A stretch of DNA of 45,566 nucleotides from Escherichia phage vB_EcoS_XY1, in sequence record NC_073325.1; one strand, given 5' to 3'. A program made the translations under genes and the position numbers. The notes under the pieces were generated by a model. It saw only the letters and a program-made list of their open reading frames with translations, did no database searches and had not been told where the DNA came from. Within the stretch, counting starts at the first letter, position 1. Each line of letters opens with the position of its first letter. This document shows positions 3,811 through 13,618 of this stretch, in pieces.

Positions 3811-5211
3811 TTAGCCGTCCACATTAAAATCAATACGAGTGATATATTTACTACCCCACGCAGAATCGGCCTGAGGGATAGTCGCGTAATCATCTACAGC
3901 CTGAACGTTTATCACGGAGCCGTCGGAATAGGTGATGTCGATACTTGTCGCGCCGTTCATTACTACTTTTGCCGATGGCGCTGGGCGTGTTACAGGAGAC
4001 GCCGACGTAATTATTGGTGATGTTGTATTTTGGTTTACCTCTACAGTAGCCGCGGATAATTTAATCCCTGAAACGCCATCCCCCGTAAAGGATCCGGTAA
4101 CTCCGTCTGAATATATCCATGCGTCCATCCGTATGCTCATTGTTTTATCTTCTGTCGCGGTGATCGTCTCCGATATTCGGAACCACCCTCCGCCTACGTC
4201 GGTTACATCTGTACCGCCTGGGCCGGAATAAATGCTACCATCCCGCAAATCAACAACTGCCGAGCCTAATACTGTAGGAAGTTCTCGCACGTACATCCGT
4301 ATGAAATTGTATCCGTTTGCTTTTGCGAAGAAACTAAAAGTAACCATGTCGCCAACACCAACGCTAACATCTACAGTCTGGTTTATTAGGTGGTTACCGC
4401 TTGCGGCGGTAGCAGTTACGTCGTACGTGCCAGCGGCTGTTAAAACACCTGTTTCAGATACTGATACACTCACCAAACCTTTGTTCCAGTTTGACGAAGA
4501 GAAATTGCTTGAATATAGGAATCTGTTAGTTACTGATACCTCTGGTGGCACGCGCCCGGCGGCAACCCCGTCAATAAACGTAAGAGGCCATTCATTGGCG
4601 GCGGACTGTACAAGATTACCATTGCGGTTGATGTAATAAACCTGCGGCCCCTCATACACAATGCGGCTATCAAGAGTCGACGCCAGAAGGTTAATCGGCG
4701 GATACCCGGCGGGGCCTTCATTGCTCCAGATGCGAGGGAACGTCGTCTCATAGTTCGCGTATATTTTCAGGAAACTACCCAGACAATCCCCGTAACAACC
4801 GTACAAATCTGGAAGATTGTTAATCAGGCACTGGTTCTCAAGGTCCTGGAACGGAGATTTCTCCGCGGTTGCCGTGAAAGTAATCGTCCAGTTAATCCCG
4901 TCTTCTGTGGATTCCGCGATGGTTGACGTAATGGTTACCTGATAATCCTCGATACCCATGCCGAAGTCGTGCGCCATCCAGAAACTTGACGCACCGCCAT
5001 CGACTTTCTCAAGGAACGACAGGAACGCCTGCCGCCCTAGTGCTGAGGTAATCAGGGTTACGCTTATTGGGAACACGTCGTAATACGTGTCGCGCCCCTG
5101 GCGCACTCCGCCGCCAGCTAAATCAACGCTCCAGACGTTGTTACGTCGGGTCATTGAGTAGCCTTTCGACACCACCGGCTTTAAACTTGCTGGAAATTTC
5201 AAAGAAGACAT
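3811..5211 (-). CDS. Minor tail / distal tail protein
   Basis: 466 aa, first gene after the tape measure on this strand; AGGAG SD; Ser/Thr/Gly-rich beta-type composition. Confidence 0.45.
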   Translation of the reverse strand: MSSLKFPASLKPVVSKGYSMTRRNNVWSVDLAGGGVRQGRDTYYDVFPISVTLITSALGRQAFLSFLEKVDGGASSFWMAHDFGMGIEDYQVTITSTIAESTEDGINWTITFTATAEKSPFQDLENQCLINNLPDLYGCYGDCLGSFLKIYANYETTFPRIWSNEGPAGYPPINLLASTLDSRIVYEGPQVYYINRNGNLVQSAANEWPLTFIDGVAAGRVPPEVSVTNRFLYSSNFSSSNWNKGLVSVSVSETGVLTAAGTYDVTATAASGNHLINQTVDVSVGVGDMVTFSFFAKANGYNFIRMYVRELPTVLGSAVVDLRDGSIYSGPGGTDVTDVGGGWFRISETITATEDKTMSIRMDAWIYSDGVTGSFTGDGVSGIKLSAATVEVNQNTTSPIITSASPVTRPAPSAKVVMNGATSIDITYSDGSVINVQAVDDYATIPQADSAWGSKYITRIDFNVDG

Positions 5212-5246
5212 GGCAAGATACTCCTATTAGTTTAGGAGATACTAAC

Positions 5247-5897
5247 ATGATGCCAACCGAAAAAGTAGCCAAGAGCATGTGGCTGCGTGCGAATTATCCT
5301 GCGAACAAAAGCAGCAAAACTAAGCGTGCAACTATATGCGATTTTGGCATAAATGACGCCGATTATGTGGTTAGCCCCAAGATAAACGGCAACCGTGAGA
5401 CGTGTCTGGCGTACGCTACATGGCGAGGGATGATCCAACGTTGCGTGGACGCCGAGTATAAAAACAAAAGGCCTGCGTACAGGGATGTAACTGTGTGGCA
5501 TGGGTGGCAAAGGTTTATGTCCTTCCGTAGATGGTGGCTTTGTAATTATGTGGAGGGATGGGAGCTAGATAAGGATATATTCTCTGGTATTAATAAGGTA
5601 TACAGCCCTACCACTTGCATCTTCATCCCTAAATGGCTGAATGTTTTCCTAAAGGAAAAGAAAAATAGGGGAACACCTACGGGTGTTTTTTATGAAGAAT
5701 CTAGAGGTAAATTTAAAGCCTCAGTGAGCTATGATAAAAAAACTATTAATCTAGGACGTTTTGAAACTCAGGAAGAAGCGCTAGATGCTTACATTGCTGA
5801 AAAGATAAGGGTGGCGGAATCAAGAAGATGTGAGATAGAGGCGATAAGGGAAGGTATGTTCGACCGCGTTATCGCCTTGATAAAAGAGGGTCGTTAG
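5247..5897 (+). CDS. Homing-endonuclease-like protein (HNH-associated family with AP2-type DNA-binding domain)
   Basis: AGGAGA SD 7 nt before ATG; motifs YATWRGMIQRC, WELDKDIFSGINKVYSPTTCIFIP and AP2-like INLGRFETQEEALDAYIAE; opposite strand to the flanking tail genes. Confidence 0.45.
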   Translation: MMPTEKVAKSMWLRANYPANKSSKTKRATICDFGINDADYVVSPKINGNRETCLAYATWRGMIQRCVDAEYKNKRPAYRDVTVWHGWQRFMSFRRWWLCNYVEGWELDKDIFSGINKVYSPTTCIFIPKWLNVFLKEKKNRGTPTGVFYEESRGKFKASVSYDKKTINLGRFETQEEALDAYIAEKIRVAESRRCEIEAIREGMFDRVIALIKEGR

Positions 5898-5940: not shown

Positions 5941-8280
5941 TTACTTAAAGCCAGGTGCGTTTCTTGTAGCCTTCCTCGCTTTCGATATTTTGCTGTTGCT
6001 GTTCTGTAGCGAAGCAGCCACCTGCTCTTCTATGATGATGCGCAAACGGCCTTCGTCATCCTGCTCGGTAGATACGTTGCCAATCTGACTCGATGTGTTA
6101 TTTACAATGGTAACATTAGATGGGCCAGAAGAAGACCCATTTTGCCCCATAATTTCTTTCATCTGCTGCGCAGTTCGTACGCGCGATGCACCAGCAGGCA
6201 TGATAACTTCTGGTTTACCGCGTTCGGCGATGGTGGAAGCCTGCCCTGCGGATAACTGTCCGCCCTGCTCACGAGCGGACCTGATAGCGGAAATCTGCGC
6301 CATACCCGCCCCGACGGCAGCGGCAGCGGCTACAGGGGCCAGGAACGGGCCGACTACAGGGATAGCCGCCGTTGATTTATACGCCTCAATAGCTGCGGTG
6401 TACGTGGCAATAGTGGCCTGTACGATAGCGAATGCCTTATACGCGCCAGAAGCCTCACCCAACGCAGACCCGATGTTTGAGGCCATGTTGCCAAAGGCCG
6501 TTGCCGTTGCGTCGGCGCGCTTCGTAGCATACTGCTCATTGATAGCGTTAAGCGCCGCCTGATACTGTTTCTCGCTAATCAAACCCTGCTCGCGGTACTT
6601 ATCCGCTACCGCCAGTTTCTGCTGTTCCTGGATGTCGAGAAGCTCAAGCTCGGTGGCATTCTGACCCATAATCTGGGCCATGAAGTCTTCACCTTTCTGG
6701 TTCTTTTCCTGCCGTTCTTTCTCTCGCTTGGCGAGTTCTTCCTGTCGTGCGGTGTCAGCTTCCAGCATAATTTGAGTTTTGGCGTTCTCGTATTGCTGGT
6801 CGCTAAGAAGCTGGTTGCCGTAAAACTCTTGTAGCTTGGTTAACTGTTGCTCCTGATTAGCTTCTATTTTCTGGAATACATCATCATTGAGATGAATAGA
6901 CTGGTAGTAGAAATCCTCAGCGGCTTTCTTCTGGCGCTCGAACGCATCCGCGGCTTTCTTAGCGGCTTTTGCCCCCGCGCTATCATCCTCGGACCCGCCA
7001 CCAGTACCGGTTACCTTAAATTTACTAAGCCCTTCTGCCTTAGCGGCTTCTTTGTCGATGTCATATGCCGCGCGTTTAAGCGCGACGATATTTTGCTGAG
7101 CCTCCACCTGTTCGCGGAAACTTTTACGGGTCAGGTCCGCAACATCACGCTGAGTATCCAGTGCCATACCCAGCTGGAAGTTAATGTTTTTTGCTACGTC
7201 TACCGATTCACCTGGTGTGAAGGCTGCTTTCACCAACCGGCCAGCATCCTGCGCCCCTTTAACCATATCTTCAAAGAAACGCTCCATCGCGGTAAATTCT
7301 TCCGCGATGAAATCTAGCGCATCGGCGGCTGATTCTGCGATGGTTGTCGCCGTTTGTTCACCGCTATCGGTGATACTTTTACTGCTAAAATCCCAGAGTT
7401 CATTCAGCCCGTTTATCGCGTCGCCTACGAAACCAAATGCCGCGTCGAACGACATCTCTATCGCGCTTCCTACTTCCGACGCGATGTCACCCCACATACG
7501 CATCTCTGCGGCAAGTTCACCGGATGCAACCTGTGCGTTAAGTTCCTGGATTAAATCATCGATGTACCGGATAGGTTCCGCAAGAGCACCAACATCAAGG
7601 CTGGTAGCCAGTGTCATTTTTAACTGCGACCAGGAATCGCTGGCACTGGCGATAGCCCCATTAAGCGTGTTAGCCTGGTCCGCCATAGCCCCAGCGAAGT
7701 TTACGTTACCAATGTTGAGCAGGTATTGCTCGATATCGGCAGCGCTCTTCTTAACCACCGTAGTAGTGCCCTGGAATGTAAATTCAACATCGTCTTTGTT
7801 CTGCTTAGCCTTGATGCCGAATTCTTTAAGGCGCTCAAATTCAAACGTACTGGCGTCCGCAACGGCCTCAATCATCTGATTTAGGTCTTTACCCATAGCA
7901 GCGGCGGTGTTGCCATAGGAGCGCAACGCTTCTTCTGATGGTGTAAGACCAAGCGCCACAAGTTTACGGAATCCCTCTACTGCCTGTTCAAGACCATACG
8001 GAGTGTCGCGCGCGAAGTCTTGCAGGATGCTTAATGCCTGTCTTGCCCCCTGCGTGCTTCCGGTTAGTGTTTTCAGGCTGGCGGACATCTTATCCAGTTG
8101 CCGTTGGGAGTCTACTAGTTCCTGTGCGGCCTTGTACGCGGTAGCAGCGACGATGGAAGCGAGGCCCGCTACCGCGGCCCCGGCTACCTTTGCGGACTTG
8201 GAAAGGTTATCAAGACGGTCTGAGGTAGCTTTCGCGCCTTGCTCTGATACTTTTACAACTAAACTAGCTACATCAGCCAT
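5941..8280 (-). CDS. Tail tape measure protein
   Basis: 779 aa, Ala/Gln/Glu-rich coiled-coil composition, immediately after the G/GT chaperone pair. Confidence 0.85.
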   Translation of the reverse strand: MADVASLVVKVSEQGAKATSDRLDNLSKSAKVAGAAVAGLASIVAATAYKAAQELVDSQRQLDKMSASLKTLTGSTQGARQALSILQDFARDTPYGLEQAVEGFRKLVALGLTPSEEALRSYGNTAAAMGKDLNQMIEAVADASTFEFERLKEFGIKAKQNKDDVEFTFQGTTTVVKKSAADIEQYLLNIGNVNFAGAMADQANTLNGAIASASDSWSQLKMTLATSLDVGALAEPIRYIDDLIQELNAQVASGELAAEMRMWGDIASEVGSAIEMSFDAAFGFVGDAINGLNELWDFSSKSITDSGEQTATTIAESAADALDFIAEEFTAMERFFEDMVKGAQDAGRLVKAAFTPGESVDVAKNINFQLGMALDTQRDVADLTRKSFREQVEAQQNIVALKRAAYDIDKEAAKAEGLSKFKVTGTGGGSEDDSAGAKAAKKAADAFERQKKAAEDFYYQSIHLNDDVFQKIEANQEQQLTKLQEFYGNQLLSDQQYENAKTQIMLEADTARQEELAKREKERQEKNQKGEDFMAQIMGQNATELELLDIQEQQKLAVADKYREQGLISEKQYQAALNAINEQYATKRADATATAFGNMASNIGSALGEASGAYKAFAIVQATIATYTAAIEAYKSTAAIPVVGPFLAPVAAAAAVGAGMAQISAIRSAREQGGQLSAGQASTIAERGKPEVIMPAGASRVRTAQQMKEIMGQNGSSSGPSNVTIVNNTSSQIGNVSTEQDDEGRLRIIIEEQVAASLQNSNSKISKARKATRNAPGFK

Positions 8281-8632
8281 CGTTTCTGCCCTCGAAAATA
8301 GCGTCTAAGCTCATGATGATGTCAGATTCAAACATGTCTATATTCTGGCCCGAAACGGTGCTGTATGCCACTAAATCCGACCATCTTAACTGTTCGCGCG
8401 GGTACATCTTGATGCCGTCGTCATCCACTCGGCGGGTAAATTTGATTTCCCGGTACTTCTCGAAGGTGGTTAATAGCTCAGGGGGGCATTCTGGCCCGGT
8501 ATCCTGCGTTGCTTCCGGCGCGTCTTGCATAACCCCCATAGCAATTAGCGCGGCTTTATGTCCGTCGGCAATGCTGTCAAACTCCCGCCGTTTGTGGCGG
8601 GTTATGAAGTTCCAACGGGCAAACTGGAGCAA
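8273..8632 (-). CDS. Tail assembly chaperone frameshift extension (T segment of a G-T fusion)
   Basis: ORF in the -1 frame relative to the upstream chaperone, open across its stop codon; typical G/GT arrangement before a tape measure gene. Confidence 0.5.
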   Translation of the reverse strand: MLQFARWNFITRHKRREFDSIADGHKAALIAMGVMQDAPEATQDTGPECPPELLTTFEKYREIKFTRRVDDDGIKMYPREQLRWSDLVAYSTVSGQNIDMFESDIIMSLDAIFEGRNDG

Positions 8633-8637
8633 CGCGT

Positions 8638-9054
8638 CTACTTTTCCTGCAATTGGTGAAGCTGTTCGTTGTGGAAAACAACAACGTGTTCAGCGAGGCG
8701 TTTATATTGTGAGAAAAGAGTGTTCAGGTTCTCTTTATTAAATTCATCGTCGAGACTCCAACCGTTAACCAGTTCAAGTGCTAACTGGCGGTTAAGGTCC
8801 GTCGCGGCGTCTTCCATCTTAATATTGTATTCCGAGAAATCTTTCAGTTCCTCACATTTATCACGAAGCGGTTTCAATTTACCTAATGCCGCGCGGTACG
8901 CAAGTGTAAACGCCCTCATAGCTTTAACGGCAACGTCTGCCTCCGGTGAAACAACGTTCAGCCACTCCCCTGAATCGGTGCCGTCTTTCAGTGGTATTGG
9001 CATACGGGCGCCTTTTTCTGCCTCAGCTTCGTAATAAAAATCAGAAAGTTTCAT
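8638..9054 (-). CDS. Tail assembly chaperone (G-like)
   Basis: 138 aa, acidic, directly upstream of the -1 frame ORF and the tape measure; AAAGGA SD. Confidence 0.55.
   Translation of the reverse strand: MKLSDFYYEAEAEKGARMPIPLKDGTDSGEWLNVVSPEADVAVKAMRAFTLAYRAALGKLKPLRDKCEELKDFSEYNIKMEDAATDLNRQLALELVNGWSLDDEFNKENLNTLFSQYKRLAEHVVVFHNEQLHQLQEK
8641..8647 (-). other. Putative -1 programmed ribosomal frameshift site (GAAAAG followed by the TAG stop)
   Basis: A-rich slippery run at the last codons of 8638-9054; the -1 frame continues without a stop into 8273-8632. Confidence 0.4.
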
Positions 9055-9160
9055 TCTTTAATCCTTTGGTTAAGAGGTTACTGGTTAAGGTTAATGCGCC
9101 AGACGGGAACCACCCGCTTTTCGTGTGCGACACTAGGCGCAAAATAATTCTAACACATTA

Positions 9161-9197
9161 CTTGCACACCCCAACATAATAGGATACTATTCACTTA
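9161..9197. promoter_or_regulatory. 37-bp bidirectional promoter/operator element (inverted copy of 30192-30228)
   Basis: Plus orientation TTGCAC-N17-TACTAT; minus orientation TTGGTG-N16-TATTAT; contains the palindrome AATAG-N4-CTATT; 36 of 37 nt identical to the reverse complement of 30192-30228. Confidence 0.5.
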
Positions 9198-9231
9198 CAC
9201 CAACAATGTTAACTCAAACAGGAGCTACCCC

Positions 9232-9423
9232 ATGACAGGTATTACTATGTTCTTCTTAATCATTATCGTTTTAGTTTATTTTATCCCATTTCTCGTGGCG
9301 CATATGCGCAACCATAAAGCTAAATTAGCGATATTCATGGCTAATCTGTTTCTCGGTTGGGTTCTGCTGCCGTGGGTATTTATTTTAATCTGGGCGTGCA
9401 ACTCGAATGTCAAAGAGAAGTGA
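9232..9423 (+). CDS. Small membrane protein, superinfection-immunity (Imm) -like
   Basis: 63 aa with two hydrophobic helices; NLFLGW..W...IWA-type motif as in the Imm_superinfect family; AGGAG SD. Confidence 0.45.
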   Translation: MTGITMFFLIIIVLVYFIPFLVAHMRNHKAKLAIFMANLFLGWVLLPWVFILIWACNSNVKEK

Positions 9424-9461
9424 GCTAGTATAGGACAAATCCTAAACACGAGGAAGTAAGC

Positions 9462-10616
9462 ATGGCCCAGAAGAAAATAACCGACGAACAGTTACAGGAA
9501 GAATTGAACGCCGGGATGAAGATTATTGATATCGCCCGTAAATACGGCATCTCAGACCGCGTTATTCGTATCCGTAAAGCGAAGCTGGCTAAGAAAGGTG
9601 TAGGCCACGGGCGTGACGTTAGTCACCTTGTACCGGACGGCTACAAGATTAAAGGAACGTCGTCTCTGGTTGATGAGTTAGGCAACACTAAACTGCAATG
9701 GGTTAAGACCGACACCGATGCGGAACGTCAGGTCGAGTTAATGAAAGCCGTTGTGGACGAGATGAAAAAAGATTTACCCAAGTATAAGCCAGTCACTTTG
9801 GCCAAAAATGGGACAGATGACGACTTATTAAATCTTTACACAATAACAGACCATCACATAGGGATGTTGGCGTGTCAAGAAGAAGGCGGGGATGATTACG
9901 ACACCACAATCGCGGAATCTCTCGCGGTTGACTGGTTCAACAGTGCGGTTTGTATGAGTCCACAGAGTGGTGAATGTATCATTAACTTCTTAGGGGACCA
10001 AATGCACTACGACGGCATGAAGGCAATGACCCCTATGAGCGGTCATATTCTTTCAGCGGATAGTCGCCTGTTTAAAATGATACGCACGGCCATTAAGGTT
10101 ATCAAGCTGGCTGTCTCACTGTGCTTGCGAAAACACAAGAAGGTTAAACTTCTTATCTGTGAAGGTAACCACGACCTTAGTTCTTCTCTGTGGCTCCGGG
10201 AGATGTTCTACGAGGTATACACAAATGAGCCTCGCGTCGAGGTTAACCGGGAGGTGTCACCGTATTATGCGTACAAGTTCGGGGATTGTATGATTTCAGC
10301 ACATCACGGGCATTGTTCTAACTTTGCTAAGGTAGAGCAGGCTATAATCGGTAAGTACCGGGAGATGTACGGGCGGTGTAAGTTCACATATGTCCATACG
10401 GGGCACCTCCATCACAGGGCGGTTAAAGAGACTAATCTGCTAATTGTTGAGCAACACCAGACATTAGCGGCTAAAGATGAGTATTCTAGTAAGGGCGGCT
10501 ATTATTCAGGTAGAAGCGCAAATGTGATTACATACCACAAACGTTACGGGGAGGTGTCCCGCATAAGTATACCTGTCGAAATGCTGCGAGACATAAACCC
10601 AAAATCGACATACTAA
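9462..10616 (+). CDS. HTH domain fused to a calcineurin-like metallophosphoesterase
   Basis: N-terminal HTH (IIDIARKYGISDRVIR); metallophosphoesterase-like motifs TDHHIG, LGDQMHYDG, EGNHD, HHGH, TGHLHH. Confidence 0.45.
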   Translation: MAQKKITDEQLQEELNAGMKIIDIARKYGISDRVIRIRKAKLAKKGVGHGRDVSHLVPDGYKIKGTSSLVDELGNTKLQWVKTDTDAERQVELMKAVVDEMKKDLPKYKPVTLAKNGTDDDLLNLYTITDHHIGMLACQEEGGDDYDTTIAESLAVDWFNSAVCMSPQSGECIINFLGDQMHYDGMKAMTPMSGHILSADSRLFKMIRTAIKVIKLAVSLCLRKHKKVKLLICEGNHDLSSSLWLREMFYEVYTNEPRVEVNREVSPYYAYKFGDCMISAHHGHCSNFAKVEQAIIGKYREMYGRCKFTYVHTGHLHHRAVKETNLLIVEQHQTLAAKDEYSSKGGYYSGRSANVITYHKRYGEVSRISIPVEMLRDINPKSTY

Positions 10617-10631
10617 AATATAGGTGAAAGT

Positions 10632-11195
10632 ATGGATTGGAGTGAGGTTTTTAGCTACAAAAATGGCGTCCTATACTGGAAAGTCAAATCATGTCGCCGT
10701 AACGATGTGAATACAGGTGATGTGGCCGGGAGTTTGTGTAAAAACGGCTATTGGTATGTCATGTTTGGTAACCGTAAGTTTAAAAGGTCGAGGGTGGTGT
10801 ATGAGATGTTCAGTACGCTGTATGACAATGAGCCGCGTGTGTTCGTCGATACGTCACCGGATGTTTACAAGATGGTGCAACACGGCAAAACGACGCTGTT
10901 CTTCCATCACGGGCATAAAGCACGATTCGACGCTATCGAACCGGTTATGATTGCCAAGTTTCGTAAAGCGTTCGGCGAGAGTGTTTACAGCTACGCCCAC
11001 GTAGGCCACCTGCACCATCAGAAGATTGTAGAAAGCCGTAACATGATTGTTGAGCAACACCGCACCTTAGCGGCTAAAGATGCCTACGCCTCCCGCGGCG
11101 GTTGGATGTCGGGCCGTAGTGCAAATGTAATTACTTATAGCGCCGAATATGGCGAGGTCGCACGTTTAACTATTTCACCGGAGATGCTTGGATGA
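10632..11195 (+). CDS. Chimeric paralog: homing-endonuclease-type N-terminal DNA-binding region fused to a duplicate of the C-terminal ~100 aa of 9462-10616
   Basis: N-terminus NGVLYWKV...GDVAGS...NGYWYV...RSRVVY follows the pattern that precedes the catalytic motif in phage HNH endonucleases; C-terminus HHGH...HVGHLHH...IVEQHRTLAAKD...GRSANVITY is clearly homologous to the end of the upstream gene. Confidence 0.4.
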   Translation: MDWSEVFSYKNGVLYWKVKSCRRNDVNTGDVAGSLCKNGYWYVMFGNRKFKRSRVVYEMFSTLYDNEPRVFVDTSPDVYKMVQHGKTTLFFHHGHKARFDAIEPVMIAKFRKAFGESVYSYAHVGHLHHQKIVESRNMIVEQHRTLAAKDAYASRGGWMSGRSANVITYSAEYGEVARLTISPEMLG

Positions 11196-11680
11196 AAGAT
11201 ATTGTGATTTTCGATTTAGACGGGACATTGGCCGATGGTACTCATCGTTTACATCTGCTGCCGAAAGATAACTACGGCGAAACCTGGGCGTGGAAGCCTT
11301 TTAACATGGCCTGTAAAGATGATGCGCCGATATATGACAACATTCACTTGTGCAACACACTGTGGCATACCGGGATGACCATAATCATCCTTACCGGGCG
11401 CAGTGATGATGCTGAGGATGAGACCCGTAAATGGTTGCGAGAAAATAACGTTAAGTTTGACACGCTGATAATGCGCAGCAAACACGACAACAGAAAAGAC
11501 ATCGCAATTAAAGAAGAGGTGTTGCGTGCTATCGGGCTGGAGAGAATCTTGTGTGCGTTCGACGACTCTCCAGCGGTAATAAAGCATTTCCGTAACCTCG
11601 GCATAACCACTCACGCAGTTACCGAATACGACTGTAACGGGAACTCTACACACTTAAAATCACACGGGAGTGATAAATAA
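11192..11680 (+). CDS. HAD-superfamily phosphatase (nucleotidase or polynucleotide 3'-phosphatase-like)
   Basis: Motif I FDLDGTL, motif II ILTGR, downstream Lys and FDD motifs; ATGA start/stop overlap with upstream gene. Confidence 0.6.
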   Translation: MKDIVIFDLDGTLADGTHRLHLLPKDNYGETWAWKPFNMACKDDAPIYDNIHLCNTLWHTGMTIIILTGRSDDAEDETRKWLRENNVKFDTLIMRSKHDNRKDIAIKEEVLRAIGLERILCAFDDSPAVIKHFRNLGITTHAVTEYDCNGNSTHLKSHGSDK

Positions 11681-12249
11681 TGGCTAAGGTAATTATTCTT
11701 AATGGTCCTGCTGGTTGCGGGAAAGACACACTTGCTATGGCGCTGGTAGAAATGGGCTTTGCAAAAGGGACTACCAGTTTCAAGAATCCAATGTTCAATA
11801 TTGCGCTGGCGGCGTTAGGCCAGGATGCCTACCACGAGTTTCTCGACGGCTACGACGACCGTGCCCGGAAAGAAAAGCCAGAGGGTTTCCTTAATGGGTT
11901 GTCTCGGCGTCAGTTCATGATCGCCATTTCTGAGCAATTCATTAAACCAGTACTTGGTAGTGATTATTTCGGTAAGTATCTCGCTGAAAACTTGCCTGAC
12001 GGCGACGAAGTTTTTGTAGTGTCCGACGGTGGATTCGCCAGTGAAGTTGCCCCTATCGTCGCCGCAGGGCATGACGTGCGAATCGTCCGCCTCCATCGTG
12101 ACGGCTATACGTTCATCGGCGATAGCCGTGGCTATCTGTATGATATCGATGGTGCGGTATGTCATGACGTCGACGTCATTCCGGGCGAGATTACATTAAC
12201 AGCGGCCGCGATTGCTAATAGAATCCTGGGGATTTACCCAAATGCGTGA
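11680..12249 (+). CDS. P-loop kinase (dNMP kinase or polynucleotide kinase-like)
   Basis: Walker A GPAGCGKDT near the N-terminus, resembling phage dNMP kinase; start immediately after the HAD gene stop. Confidence 0.5.
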   Translation: MAKVIILNGPAGCGKDTLAMALVEMGFAKGTTSFKNPMFNIALAALGQDAYHEFLDGYDDRARKEKPEGFLNGLSRRQFMIAISEQFIKPVLGSDYFGKYLAENLPDGDEVFVVSDGGFASEVAPIVAAGHDVRIVRLHRDGYTFIGDSRGYLYDIDGAVCHDVDVIPGEITLTAAAIANRILGIYPNA

Positions 12250-12419: not shown

Positions 12420-12448
12420 AAAAGGCCCCGAAAGGGGCCTTAGTTTTA
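12420..12448. terminator. Bidirectional rho-independent terminator (identical copy at 42857-42885)
   Basis: AAAAGGCCCCGAAAGGGGCCTTAGTTTTA: GC stem with A/T runs on both sides, between convergent gene ends. Confidence 0.7.
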
Positions 12449-13618
12449 TGCGTAACTAATACGTTGAATTACGATAGACGACTGGTACTGGTTGCCTGTG
12501 GACTGTCCTTCTATACTTTGGGTAATTGATTCCGGGCCAGATATTTCTGGTGTAACAGCCGTAAGTTCTGCACGTTTCAAACTGAAAGACATAGCCCCGT
12601 TTACCCCCGCCAGAATAGAGTTAATCTCTACCTGCTGTTCATTGATGAACTTCTGAATCATCGCCATGTCGTACAGCTTACCGGAGATGGAGAAGGTGTT
12701 AGCGGCGCGGCTACGTTCCACAAACGCTACGTTAGTGTTGCCAAGTTCGAACTGTGCGGATGCGCTGTTATCGTTGGTGATTGTCAGGCTATCACAACGC
12801 AACGGCATAGAACCATCGAACACAGAAACGTCAACCGAAGAGAACGGCTCGTCACCAAACGTGACAGAGGAGAAATCAGAACCCGTCGGCGGCGTGGTGA
12901 GAATCTCCTGGCTGCGCCCGATGAACGGGAAACTGCCAGTTACCATCGCATTAACGGCCTGCTCGACAGTGAAACCGGAAACTTCCACACCTTTAGTCAG
13001 CGTGTACGCGTCAGCCCCGCCACACTGCCCTTTGTACCACGTGAGAATAGAGAACGTCTTGCACTGGCTTCCTGTTTCCAGTTTGTCGCCAGTCTTAGCG
13101 GCGGTAGTTACGGTCTCAGTGGTCAGAGTATGTTGGATACCAGCACCTGTAACAACAGATGCGCTTACCTCGGTTACGATAAACGGTTTGGCGTTATCAC
13201 CTGTTAAGTCGGTAAACGCAATCAGGTCGCCCACTTCAACGCCGTCGGTAATAAAGCTGCCATCAGCACGGGTGAACGTCTTGCCCGCCGGTGCGACGGT
13301 AATCGACAGCCCGGACAGAGAAACACCGGATTGCCACGTAGAACCTAAAGCCCCAGCCAGCCAGTCGTCCTGGCTTTTCGAACTAAGCTCAATAGCGTAT
13401 TCCCCGCTAACCTGCTTGTTACCGGTGCGGATGGACGTAGTTTCACGACTGCCGTCCAGTTCGTTGGATGTCAGTGTGTCACGGGTAATGGCGGGAACAC
13501 CGCCCGTGTTACGTAATGGTGACCATACCGGGTTAGTCGGTGTTACGCCCGGGGTCACTTCCGCCACATAGAATTGCGCGGTATTCGCGCCCTTAAAAGG
13601 AGTTGTAGCCATATTCAC
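12446..13618 (-). CDS. Major tail protein (tail tube), putative
   Basis: 390 aa, Thr/Ser/Gly-rich; last structural gene before the chaperones (separated by the plus-strand cassette); ends in a strong terminator. Confidence 0.45.
   Translation of the reverse strand: MNMATTPFKGANTAQFYVAEVTPGVTPTNPVWSPLRNTGGVPAITRDTLTSNELDGSRETTSIRTGNKQVSGEYAIELSSKSQDDWLAGALGSTWQSGVSLSGLSITVAPAGKTFTRADGSFITDGVEVGDLIAFTDLTGDNAKPFIVTEVSASVVTGAGIQHTLTTETVTTAAKTGDKLETGSQCKTFSILTWYKGQCGGADAYTLTKGVEVSGFTVEQAVNAMVTGSFPFIGRSQEILTTPPTGSDFSSVTFGDEPFSSVDVSVFDGSMPLRCDSLTITNDNSASAQFELGNTNVAFVERSRAANTFSISGKLYDMAMIQKFINEQQVEINSILAGVNGAMSFSLKRAELTAVTPEISGPESITQSIEGQSTGNQYQSSIVIQRISYA

What the first reader, a model, noticed from the sequence alone, without database searches (positions are those of the whole stretch)
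8628..8650. Probable -1 programmed frameshift joining the two tail assembly chaperone ORFs (G and G-T)
Seen: the chaperone ORF 8638-9054 ends ...CAG GAA AAG TAG. The -1 frame is open across this stop and continues for about 120 codons (8273-8632) up to the tape measure start. The shift would occur on the A-rich GAAAAG run immediately before the stop codon. Established knowledge: long-tailed phages almost universally make a G-T fusion by -1 frameshifting at this position in the gene order. The site here (lysine codon AAG slipping to AAA, directly followed by a stop) is not the canonical XXXYYYZ heptamer, so the mechanism and efficiency are uncertain.
Basis: partly seen in the sequence, partly recalled or inferred. 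Interest (0 to 1): 0.4.

Follow-up and report, generated by a model that had tools for sequence, protein, structure and literature searches.

The report
Tail chaperone G-T frameshift signal
This is the expected -1 ribosomal frameshift that fuses the two tail-assembly chaperone reading frames of a Kagunavirus coliphage; sister phages already annotate the fusion, but about 125 relatives show the signal is a minimal A_AAG slip site, a stop codon and a conserved long-range RNA helix.

Summary
On the minus strand the 138-codon chaperone ORF (9054-8638) ends CAG GAA AAG TAG. The -1 frame is open from 8692 to 8273 and ends 8 nt inside the tape-measure gene.

RefSeq already holds the identical fusion junction (…LQEK|VDALLQF…) for phages fFiEco03 and fPoEco01. 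Their product differs from this window's predicted 260-aa protein by one residue.

Comparison of 127 distinct relatives, down to about 42% identity, adds three points:
- Only A_AAG is invariant. The preceding codon is always NNA while its amino acid varies.
- A stop codon follows directly in 126 of 127.
- No start codon for the downstream frame is conserved. The TTG at 8632 is CTG in 22 of 23 lineages.

A GC-rich helix begins 5 nt after AAG. In the window it pairs 8635-8628 with 8513-8506. It is kept by compensatory changes, and its 3' arm sits at different places in different clades: about +135, about +210, or as a local hairpin.

One lineage has a textbook signal, A_AAA_AAG plus a hairpin, at the same position.

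No experiment has tested any of this. The frameshift itself is ordinary. The architecture of the signal is a modest new variant.

The parts
8638..9054 (-). Gene G: tail assembly chaperone ORF, 138 aa plus TAG
   Evidence: Pfam Phage_TAC_4 E=2.5e-8. phrog_15027 positions 1-138.
8641..8647 (-). Shift site G_GAA_AAG. The conserved core is A_AAG (8644-8641). tRNA-Lys re-pairs from AAG (8643-8641) to AAA (8644-8642).
   Evidence: NNA_AAG is invariant in 85 + 42 distinct relatives. The 5' codon is GAA, GCA, TCA, AAA, CAA, GTA or GGA.
8638..8640 (-). Zero-frame stop TAG directly 3' of the slip codon, lying inside the 5-nt spacer TAGAC (8640-8636)
   Evidence: The stop is adjacent in 126 of 127 distinct relatives; L088 has one sense codon in between. 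In 23 lineages it is TAG 14 and TAA 8, with no TGA.
8628..8635 (-). 5' arm of the long-range helix, GCGTTGCT. It contains the TTG (8632-8630) that most GenBank records use as the start of a separate ORF.
   Evidence: Synonymous sites of T codons 4-5 are frozen: GCG in 23/23 and YTG in 23/23 lineages. RNAalifold and pair counts support the helix. It is present in the MFE and centroid folds of the window.
8506..8513 (-). 3' arm of the long-range helix, AGCAACGC. It gives 8 Watson-Crick pairs with 8635-8628.
   Evidence: Compensatory changes are seen: U-A to C-G at pair 16-139, and C-G / U-A / U-G at pair 19-136.
8514..8627 (-). 114-nt domain enclosed by the helix. It includes a local hairpin, CCCGCC (8601-8596) with GGCGGG (8589-8584), that is not conserved outside Kagunavirus.
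   Evidence: fold -53.1 kcal/mol, z = -2.0; the hairpin is not conserved.
8273..8644 (-). T segment read in the -1 frame: AAA 8644-8642, then 122 codons from GTA 8641, with stop TGA 8275-8273. The predicted G-T fusion is 260 aa and 29.9 kDa.
   Evidence: Pfam Phage_TAC_18 E=5e-19. pN/pS is 0.16-0.68 in this frame only. Fusion sequence.
5941..8280 (-). Tape measure protein gene. Its ATG at 8280 overlaps the end of T.
   Evidence: Pfam TMP_3 below cut-off. Annotated as tape measure in PQ417132.

Best explanation
The window is a Kagunavirus (Guernseyvirinae) coliphage genome.

Most ribosomes translate gene G (9054-8641) and stop at TAG 8640. A small fraction slip back one base when tRNA-Lys, bound to AAG (8643-8641), re-pairs with AAA (8644-8642). 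They then read GTA GAC GCG TTG... for 122 more codons. The product is a 260-aa G-T fusion, the counterpart of lambda gpGT.

The signal has three parts:
- the minimal slippery motif NNA_AAG, here G_GAA_AAG;
- the zero-frame stop codon directly after it;
- after a 5-nt spacer, a GC-rich helix whose 5' arm (8635-8628) pairs with a 3' arm 115 nt downstream (8513-8506) and closes a folded 114-nt domain.

With GAA and AAG in the P and A sites, the helix begins at about +12, at the mRNA entrance. That is where -1 frameshift stimulators act. If the ribosome stays in frame, the stop codon in the A site gives tRNA-Lys in the P site a second chance to slip.

Because most ribosomes terminate at the stop, the T region is rarely translated and so can hold a long-range fold.

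Shown here: the conservation of each element, the covariation, and the coding signal in the -1 frame. Inferred: that slippage actually occurs, how efficient it is, and that the helix and the stop stimulate it.
For: Identity and families
- The region is 100% identical to Escherichia phage vB_VIPECOTH07 over 8200-9300.
- G matches Phage_TAC_4 and T matches Phage_TAC_18. phrog_15027 (259 positions) spans both.

Slip site
- A_AAG is invariant in 127 distinct relatives, while the amino acid of the 5' codon varies.
- The -1 frame opens only 7 nt before the stop in L091 and L098, and 16 nt before it in L027, L028, L064, L078, L089, L097, L101, L112 and L113. The shift must therefore occur on the last two codons.

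No independent start
- The nearest in-frame ATG/GTG/TTG after the stop lies anywhere from +8 to +281. It is CTG instead of TTG in 22 of 23 lineages.
- Gene callers mostly start T at internal Met36, giving 87 aa.

Coding signal
- pN/pS is 0.16-0.68 in the -1 frame for codons 3-44 directly after the junction, against 0.6-5 in the other frames.

Helix
- RNAalifold predicts it independently in both clades.
- 94.9% and 95.8% of cells are paired, against 2-55% when the partner is slid. The covariation score exceeds all 500 shuffles.
- Helix probability is at least 0.75 in 20 of 23 single-sequence folds.
- Out of sample, helices reach 16-17 bp (L153, L157).
- L176 has A_AAA_AAG, a 5-nt spacer and a local 10-bp hairpin at the homologous site.

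Literature
- A_AAG is the most shift-prone tetramer in E. coli. It is at background level alone and reaches up to 5.6% with a pseudoknot 5 nt downstream (PMC4066793).
- NNA_AAG sites are used by IS1222 and occur in B. subtilis cdd. E. coli has a single tRNA-Lys (PMC5009743).

Other
- The window encodes no tRNA.
- The same junction is deposited as a frameshift product: QNO11663.1 / YP_010748927.1 and YP_010749005.1.
Against: - No experimental evidence was found: no mass spectrometry and no reporter assay. One genome announcement for a sister phage states there is 'no canonical slippery sequence' (PMC6776780).
- In this phage a TTG at 8632 with an AGGA 12 nt upstream could in principle start a separate T. 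Most GenBank records annotate it that way.
- The window's helix is only 8 bp and closes a 114-nt loop. That is unusual for a bacterial stimulator.
- Both arms encode conserved peptide motifs, so part of the conservation is at the protein level.
- Three lineages fold the helix poorly in silico (L059, L060, L107).
- A few best helices in the metagenome set are at chance level: 8 bp with 2 G-U pairs.
- Covariation counts sequences, not independent events.
Confidence: 0.85

Rival explanations
1. T is made as a separate 119-aa protein. It would arise by initiation, or by termination-reinitiation, at TTG 8632, which lies 5 nt after the G stop. This is how PQ417132 and most GenBank records annotate it. 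No recoding would be involved.
For: The TTG is in frame, with an AGGA (8648-8645) 12 nt upstream. Separate CDSs are annotated.
Against: - The TTG is CTG in 22 of 23 lineages, and its first base covaries with the helix partner (U-A to C-G).
- It lies inside the helix arm.
- No SD is conserved; GCA_AAG lineages have none.
- The next in-frame start lies as far as +281.
- This model does not explain the invariance of A_AAG or of the wobble A.
Confidence: 0.06
2. The -1 frameshift occurs, driven by A_AAG plus the adjacent stop alone (a 'shifty stop'). The long-range helix would serve another purpose, such as mRNA stability, processing, or keeping T and the tape-measure start closed. It could also be a by-product of two conserved peptide motifs.
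For: The stop is adjacent in 126 of 127 sequences. TAG is enriched (14 of 22, against 6 of 45 long ORFs in the window) and TGA is absent in the 23 lineages. Both arms encode conserved residues: AL(Y/L/F), and either xTxQ or KF(I/V)QR.
Against: - The 5' arm always starts 4-5 nt after AAG, while the 3' arm has moved between at least three locations.
- Synonymous sites are frozen and there are compensatory changes.
- A_AAG without a stimulator is at background level in E. coli.
- L088 keeps the helix but not the adjacent stop.
Confidence: 0.2
3. The fusion is made by transcriptional slippage of RNA polymerase on the A run, not by ribosomal slippage.
For: There is an A run at the junction: four A in GGAAAAG.
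Against: The run is only 3-4 A in most lineages (GCAAAG, GAAAAG). From general knowledge, known slippage needs longer homopolymers. This model would also not require the G of AAG, the stop, or a helix 5 nt downstream.
Confidence: 0.01

Closest known systems
Phage lambda gpG / gpGT and the conserved G-T frameshift of long-tailed phages (Levin 1993; Xu, Hendrix & Duda 2004, as cited in PMC5009743)
   Same: There are two overlapping chaperone ORFs immediately upstream of the tape measure gene. The shift is -1, near the end of G, with AAG (Lys) as the slipping A-site codon. A low-abundance G-T fusion is expected (lambda is 30:1).
   Different: Lambda uses the true heptamer G_GGA_AAG. Here the P-site codon (GAA, GCA, TCA and others) cannot re-pair cognately. 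The stop codon is directly adjacent. A conserved 3' helix is present. The tail tube gene is not adjacent: a 3.2-kb block of opposite-strand genes lies between it and G.
IS3-family and related A_AAG / NNA_AAG sites (IS3, IS1222 G_CGA_AAG, Bacillus subtilis cdd A_CGA_AAG)
   Same: Both use a minimal A_AAG tetramer or NNA_AAG hexamer read by a single tRNA-Lys. Both depend on a 3' structure placed 5 nt downstream, the spacer used in the IS3 constructs.
   Different: IS3 uses a compact pseudoknot. Here a helix closes a domain of 114-190 nt and its 3' arm is evolutionarily mobile. The gene context is different.
E. coli dnaX (A_AAA_AAG, with an upstream SD-like element and a 3' hairpin)
   Same: Both involve tRNA-Lys slippage on AAG stimulated by a downstream helix. 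Lineages L090/L095 and L176 carry exactly A_AAA_AAG at the homologous site, and L176 has a local 10-bp hairpin.
   Different: The window lacks the first AAA. No SD-like element is conserved upstream.
Long-distance base-pairing stimulators of -1 frameshifting in plant RNA viruses (for example the umbravirus-like RNAs in PMC10602861, listed)
   Same: In both, the stimulator needs pairing between non-adjacent mRNA segments.
   Different: Here the distance is 0.03-0.2 kb and lies within the downstream ORF. The 5' arm itself abuts the spacer. This resemblance rests on titles and abstracts and on my own recollection; it was not tested.

Membership tests
Tail assembly chaperone G/G-T programmed frameshift (lambda paradigm) | Two overlapping ORFs directly upstream of the tape measure gene, with the second in the -1 frame | tested here: met
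   G is 9054-8638. The -1 ORF runs to 8273. The tape-measure ATG is at 8280.
Tail assembly chaperone G/G-T programmed frameshift (lambda paradigm) | Located just downstream of the major tail (tube) gene | tested here: not met
   The tube gene (Phage_tube_2) is at 13618-12446 (-). Plus-strand genes at 9232-12249 intervene. The same layout is found in relatives.
Tail assembly chaperone G/G-T programmed frameshift (lambda paradigm) | Sequence homology to known tail assembly chaperone families | tested here: met
   Phage_TAC_4 at 34.6 bits (cut-off 21.1). Phage_TAC_18 at 68.7 bits (cut-off 27). phrog_15027 covers both ORFs.
Tail assembly chaperone G/G-T programmed frameshift (lambda paradigm) | The downstream ORF lacks its own conserved start and is conserved as protein from the junction | tested here: met
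Tail assembly chaperone G/G-T programmed frameshift (lambda paradigm) | A G-T fusion protein is made at a low ratio and is needed for tail assembly | not testable with these tools
   Only database annotations of a predicted product exist.
Canonical X_XXY_YYZ heptamer -1 PRF | Both the P-site and A-site tRNAs can re-pair in the -1 frame | tested here: not met
   The window has G_GAA_AAG. Relatives have C_GCA_AAG, G_TCA_AAG and others. Only L090, L095 and L176 have A_AAA_AAG.
Z_ZZN tetramer / NNA_AAG hexamer -1 PRF (IS3, IS1222, cdd type) | An A_AAG motif in the zero frame, conserved at nucleotide level | tested here: met
   127 of 127 distinct sequences. P = 2.5e-9 and 7e-11 in 23 lineages.
Z_ZZN tetramer / NNA_AAG hexamer -1 PRF (IS3, IS1222, cdd type) | A 3' stimulatory RNA structure about 5-7 nt downstream | tested here: met
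   The helix starts 5 nt after AAG, with covariation in two clades. Its stimulatory effect has not been measured.
Z_ZZN tetramer / NNA_AAG hexamer -1 PRF (IS3, IS1222, cdd type) | The host decodes AAA and AAG with one tRNA-Lys (UUU anticodon) | not tested
   Established for E. coli (PMC5009743). The window encodes no tRNA.
'Shifty stop' P-site slippage | A stop codon immediately 3' of the slip codon that raises shifting | tested here: inconclusive
   Adjacency holds in 126 of 127 sequences and TAG is enriched. L088 lacks adjacency. The functional effect cannot be tested here.
Rfam frameshift elements | A match to a curated RNA family | tested here: not met
   Only a chance snoRNA hit at E=0.21.

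The most novel reading that the evidence does not exclude
The G-T frameshift of Guernseyvirinae and their relatives uses a signal not described before for phage tail chaperones. It is a bare A_AAG slip site with the stop codon in the spacer. The stimulator is a helix whose 5' arm is fixed 5 nt downstream. Its 3' arm has been re-invented at several distances in different clades: about 45, 97, 135 and 210 nt. Low ribosome traffic beyond the stop is what would allow such a long-range fold to form. In one clade the arms, up to 17 bp, encode the conserved T-protein motifs ALYEF and KF(I/V)QR. RNA structure and protein sequence would then constrain each other.
Probability: 0.6. Interest if true: 0.5.

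Novelty: new variant of a known kind. Interest (0 to 1): 0.35.

Why it matters
The frameshift itself is textbook and is already annotated in sister phages. On its own it matters mainly for annotation.

Most of the roughly 500 GenBank relatives, and nearly all metagenome gene calls, list T as a stand-alone hypothetical protein. It is often truncated to 87 aa. One publication states that these phages lack a slippery sequence.

The comparative result gives a simple rule for correcting those records: NNA_AAG, then a stop, then a 5-nt spacer, then a helix.

For recoding biology it offers a natural series of homologous sites. In that series the same minimal slip site is paired with different 3' partners, ranging from a local hairpin to a 190-nt-loop helix of 17 bp. 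It also includes one canonical heptamer version. This is a ready-made set for testing three things: how stimulator topology sets frameshift efficiency, how stimulator distance does so, and what an adjacent stop codon contributes.

Tried and rejected
1. My first RNAalifold run covered only the first 120 nt after the junction and found no structure. I nearly concluded there was no stimulator. The frozen synonymous sites at GCG YTG prompted a search for distant partners.
2. The local hairpin CCCGCC/GGCGGG (8601-8584) was rejected as the stimulator. It lies 40 nt downstream and is not conserved.
3. An upstream SD-like stimulator of the dnaX type was rejected. AGGA/GGA is present only where the 5' codon is GAA and is absent in GCA lineages.
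4. Tandem slippage on G_GAA_AAG as the conserved mechanism was rejected, because the 5' codon and the base before it vary.
5. Independent initiation at TTG 8632, transcriptional slippage and a non-expressed T are covered under the rival explanations.
6. Pairing of GCGCUG with the GCN-GCG-C codons at about +90 (seen in the folds) is not conserved.
7. Rfam gave nothing.
8. The scan of genome contigs gave only one hit, probably a contaminant.
9. The literature searches found no experimental work on this frameshift. PMID 25663216 (the Jerseyvirinae paper) is not held in the library.
10. The promoter and terminator scan was uninformative.
11. No structure prediction was run, because fold was not at issue.

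Full report
**What is in the sequence.** All features lie on the minus strand.
- A 138-codon ORF runs 9054-8638 and ends TTG CAG GAA AAG TAG (ORF list; translation).
- The frame one base back reads ...GCA GGA AAA GTA GAC GCG TTG CTC CAG TTT... It is open from 8692 to the TGA at 8275-8273.
- That TGA overlaps the ATG (8280) of a 779-aa ORF.

**Identity.**
- The region is 100% identical to Escherichia phage vB_VIPECOTH07 (Kagunavirus, Guernseyvirinae). It is 85-98% identical to about 300 Escherichia and Salmonella phages.
- The first ORF matches Pfam Phage_TAC_4 and the -1 ORF matches Phage_TAC_18. The next gene is the tape measure.
- PHROG 15027 is a 259-position profile. It matches the first ORF at positions 1-138 and the second at 138-259, so fused versions already exist in databases.
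- Most GenBank records list two separate proteins. fFiEco03 and fFiEco02 carry a joined CDS labelled 'frameshift product'.
- The junction I predict (…QEK|VDALL…) gives exactly the deposited proteins QNO11663.1 / YP_010748927.1 (260 aa) and YP_010749005.1 (259 aa).
- The window's own predicted fusion (260 aa, 29.9 kDa) differs from the former by one residue.
- The literature disagrees with itself. One genome announcement says a sister phage has 'no canonical slippery sequence' (PMC6776780). Another says a Jersey-like phage 'contains the slippery sequence' (PMC6763656). I found no experimental test.

**Comparative test of the frameshift.** I collected relatives from four sources: IMG/VR, GenBank phages, one genome contig and metagenomes. 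These gave 85 + 42 distinct sequences, down to about 42% identity.
- All 127 sequences have NNA AAG at the end of G.
- The 5' codon is GAA, GCA, TCA, AAA, CAA, GTA or GGA. The amino acid changes but the third base is always A.
- In 23 lineages below 80% identity, Lys is always AAG, against 42% AAG among Lys codons elsewhere in these genes. Treating lineages as independent gives P = 2.5e-9. The same calculation gives 7e-11 for the wobble A.
- Synonymous sites elsewhere in the alignment are well mixed.
- The -1 frame is always open for 118-123 codons.
- Upstream, it opens as little as 7 nt before the stop (L091, L098), so the shift must happen on the last two codons.
- The TTG at 8632 that annotators use as a start is CTG in 22 of 23 lineages. 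The nearest in-frame ATG/GTG/TTG lies anywhere from +8 to +281.
- Automatic gene calls mostly begin at internal Met36, giving 87 aa.
- Codons 3-44 directly after the junction show pN/pS of 0.16-0.68 in the -1 frame, against 0.6-5 in the other frames.

These results support translation of T by ribosomes arriving from G through a -1 shift on A_AAG.

**The signal.**
- Sharma et al. (PMC4066793) found that A_AAG is by far the most shift-prone tetramer in E. coli. It is at background level without a stimulator and reaches up to 5.6% with the IS3 pseudoknot placed 5 nt downstream.
- The Atkins et al. review (PMC5009743) lists NNA_AAG sites in IS1222 and in B. subtilis cdd. It also notes that E. coli has a single tRNA-Lys.
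- A stimulator was therefore expected. My first alignment fold stopped at +120 and found none.
- T codons 4-5 are frozen at synonymous sites: GCG in 23/23 and YTG in 23/23 lineages. Other Ala and Leu columns vary freely.
- Searching for partners showed that this segment, which starts 5 nt after AAG, is the 5' arm of a helix.

*Clade A* (T of 123 aa: the window, Jerseyvirus and others).
- The partner lies at about +132 to +139. Arm and partner read:
 - GCGTTGCT / AGCAACGC in the window (8635-8628 with 8513-8506);
 - GCGTTGTTTC / GAAACAACGC in Jerseyvirus;
 - GCGCTGT / ACAGCGC or GCAGCGC in the other lineages.
- RNAalifold predicts the helix on its own, with 7 pairs intact in 17 of 17 sequences. 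Two pairs show compensatory change: U-A 9 / C-G 8, and U-A 8 / U-G 5 / C-G 4.
- 94.9% of cells are paired, against 21-55% when the partner is slid. Covariation exceeds 500 of 500 shuffles.

*Clade B* (T of 122 aa).
- The partner lies at about +204 to +215.
- RNAalifold predicts 10 pairs.
- 95.8% of cells are paired, against 2-54% when slid.
- Compensatory changes include L090: GCGCTGCAT with ATGCAGCG.

*Folds and out-of-sample sequences.*
- The window's minimum-energy and centroid folds contain the helix.
- Helix probability is at least 0.75 in 20 of 23 lineages.
- L107, which has a mismatch at the clade-B site, has CAGCGC at the clade-A position instead.
- In the metagenome set the helix recurs with the same arm start and reaches 16-17 bp (L153, L157).
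- L176 has A_AAA_AAG, UAA, a 5-nt spacer and a local 10-bp hairpin. That is a textbook signal at the homologous site.
- Rfam has no matching family.

**Mechanism.**
- With GAA and AAG in the P and A sites the helix starts at about +12, at the mRNA entrance. That is the classical geometry for -1 frameshifting during translocation.
- Re-pairing of tRNA-Lys from AAG to AAA is cognate. The P-site tRNA re-pairs poorly, as at other hexamer sites.
- The stop codon is adjacent in 126 of 127 sequences. L088 has TTA in between.
- In the 23 lineages it is TAG in 14, TAA in 8 and never TGA. Long ORFs in the window use TAA 25, TGA 14 and TAG 6.
- This fits a second, P-site opportunity while release factor is awaited. 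It could also simply fix the C-terminus of G.
- The stop also keeps ribosome traffic over T low, which would let a long-range fold persist. That last point is inference.
- The TTG 'start' lies inside the helix arm, and its T/C alternation is explained by pairing, not by start-codon choice.

**Rivals.**
- Separate initiation or reinitiation at TTG cannot be excluded for this one phage. It fails across the family and leaves the A_AAG invariance unexplained.
- Transcriptional slippage is unlikely on 3-4 A.
- The helix might have another role, or might partly reflect the conserved peptides it encodes. However, the fixed arm position, the moving partner and the compensatory changes argue for RNA-level selection tied to the slip site.

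**Verdict.**
- The finding is real and its interpretation is right. As a G-T frameshift it is ordinary and already annotated in RefSeq for sister phages.
- The new element, as far as the searchable literature shows, is the signal architecture.
- Confidence in the frameshift is about 0.85. Confidence that the helix is its stimulator is about 0.65-0.7.
- Everything functional remains to be measured. The reporter must include 8513-8506, and the junction peptide must not be sought with trypsin.

Noticed in passing
window 9232-12249 (+ strand), between 12446-13618 (-) and 9054 (-): The tail tube gene (Phage_tube_2, 13618-12446) is separated from G by a 3.2-kb block of opposite-strand genes. These are a T4-Imm-like superinfection immunity protein (9232-9423), an exonuclease, a 187-aa ORF with no Pfam hit (10632-11195), a polynucleotide kinase and a dNMP kinase. 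The 187-aa ORF has no counterpart among the features annotated in PQ417132 over the homologous stretch.
   Followed up: partly
window 5067-5897 (+): An opposite-strand ORF lies just after the tape measure gene. It is annotated as an HNH endonuclease in PQ417132. Here it gives only a weak AP2-domain hit below the cut-off. It is likely a homing endonuclease inserted in the tail module.
   Followed up: partly
L157:1209-1225 with 1398-1414; alignment A4 columns 13-23 with 206-216: In clade B the two helix arms encode the conserved T-protein motifs ALYEF and KF(I/V)QR. They are mutually complementary for up to 17 bp, so protein sequence and RNA structure appear to constrain each other.
   Followed up: partly
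L176:695-755; L090 and L095 around 1195-1210: Some relatives carry the canonical dnaX-type heptamer A_AAA_AAG at the homologous site. L176 also has a local 10-bp hairpin after a 5-nt spacer.
   Followed up: yes
L088:1201-1215: This is the single relative in which a sense codon (TTA) separates AAG from the stop (TAG). The helix arm and A_AAG are kept. L171 is the only sequence with TGA as the stop.
   Followed up: partly
L120 (NZ_JACVEL010000023.1, Taishania pollutisoli): A 13-kb contig in a Bacteroidota genome assembly carries a Jerseyvirus-like G-T region that is 86% identical to the query at protein level. It is probably contamination with a Salmonella phage rather than a prophage.
   Followed up: no
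L024:1046-1160 (IMGVR_UViG_638275545_000001): The G ORF is interrupted by TGA after 37 codons in this otherwise 85%-identical relative. This is a likely sequencing error or a defective copy.
   Followed up: no
database proteins P0030-P0120 and cluster members P0139, P0143: Automatic gene calling starts the T ORF at internal Met36 (87-90 aa) in most public entries. It starts at the TTG/CTG-adjacent position (119 aa) in others. The family is therefore systematically mis-annotated.
   Followed up: partly
window 8273-8295 (-): The tape-measure ATG (8280) overlaps the T stop (ATGGCTGA) and has its own GAGGG 9 nt upstream. Tape-measure translation therefore does not depend on the rare frameshifted ribosomes.
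   Followed up: no
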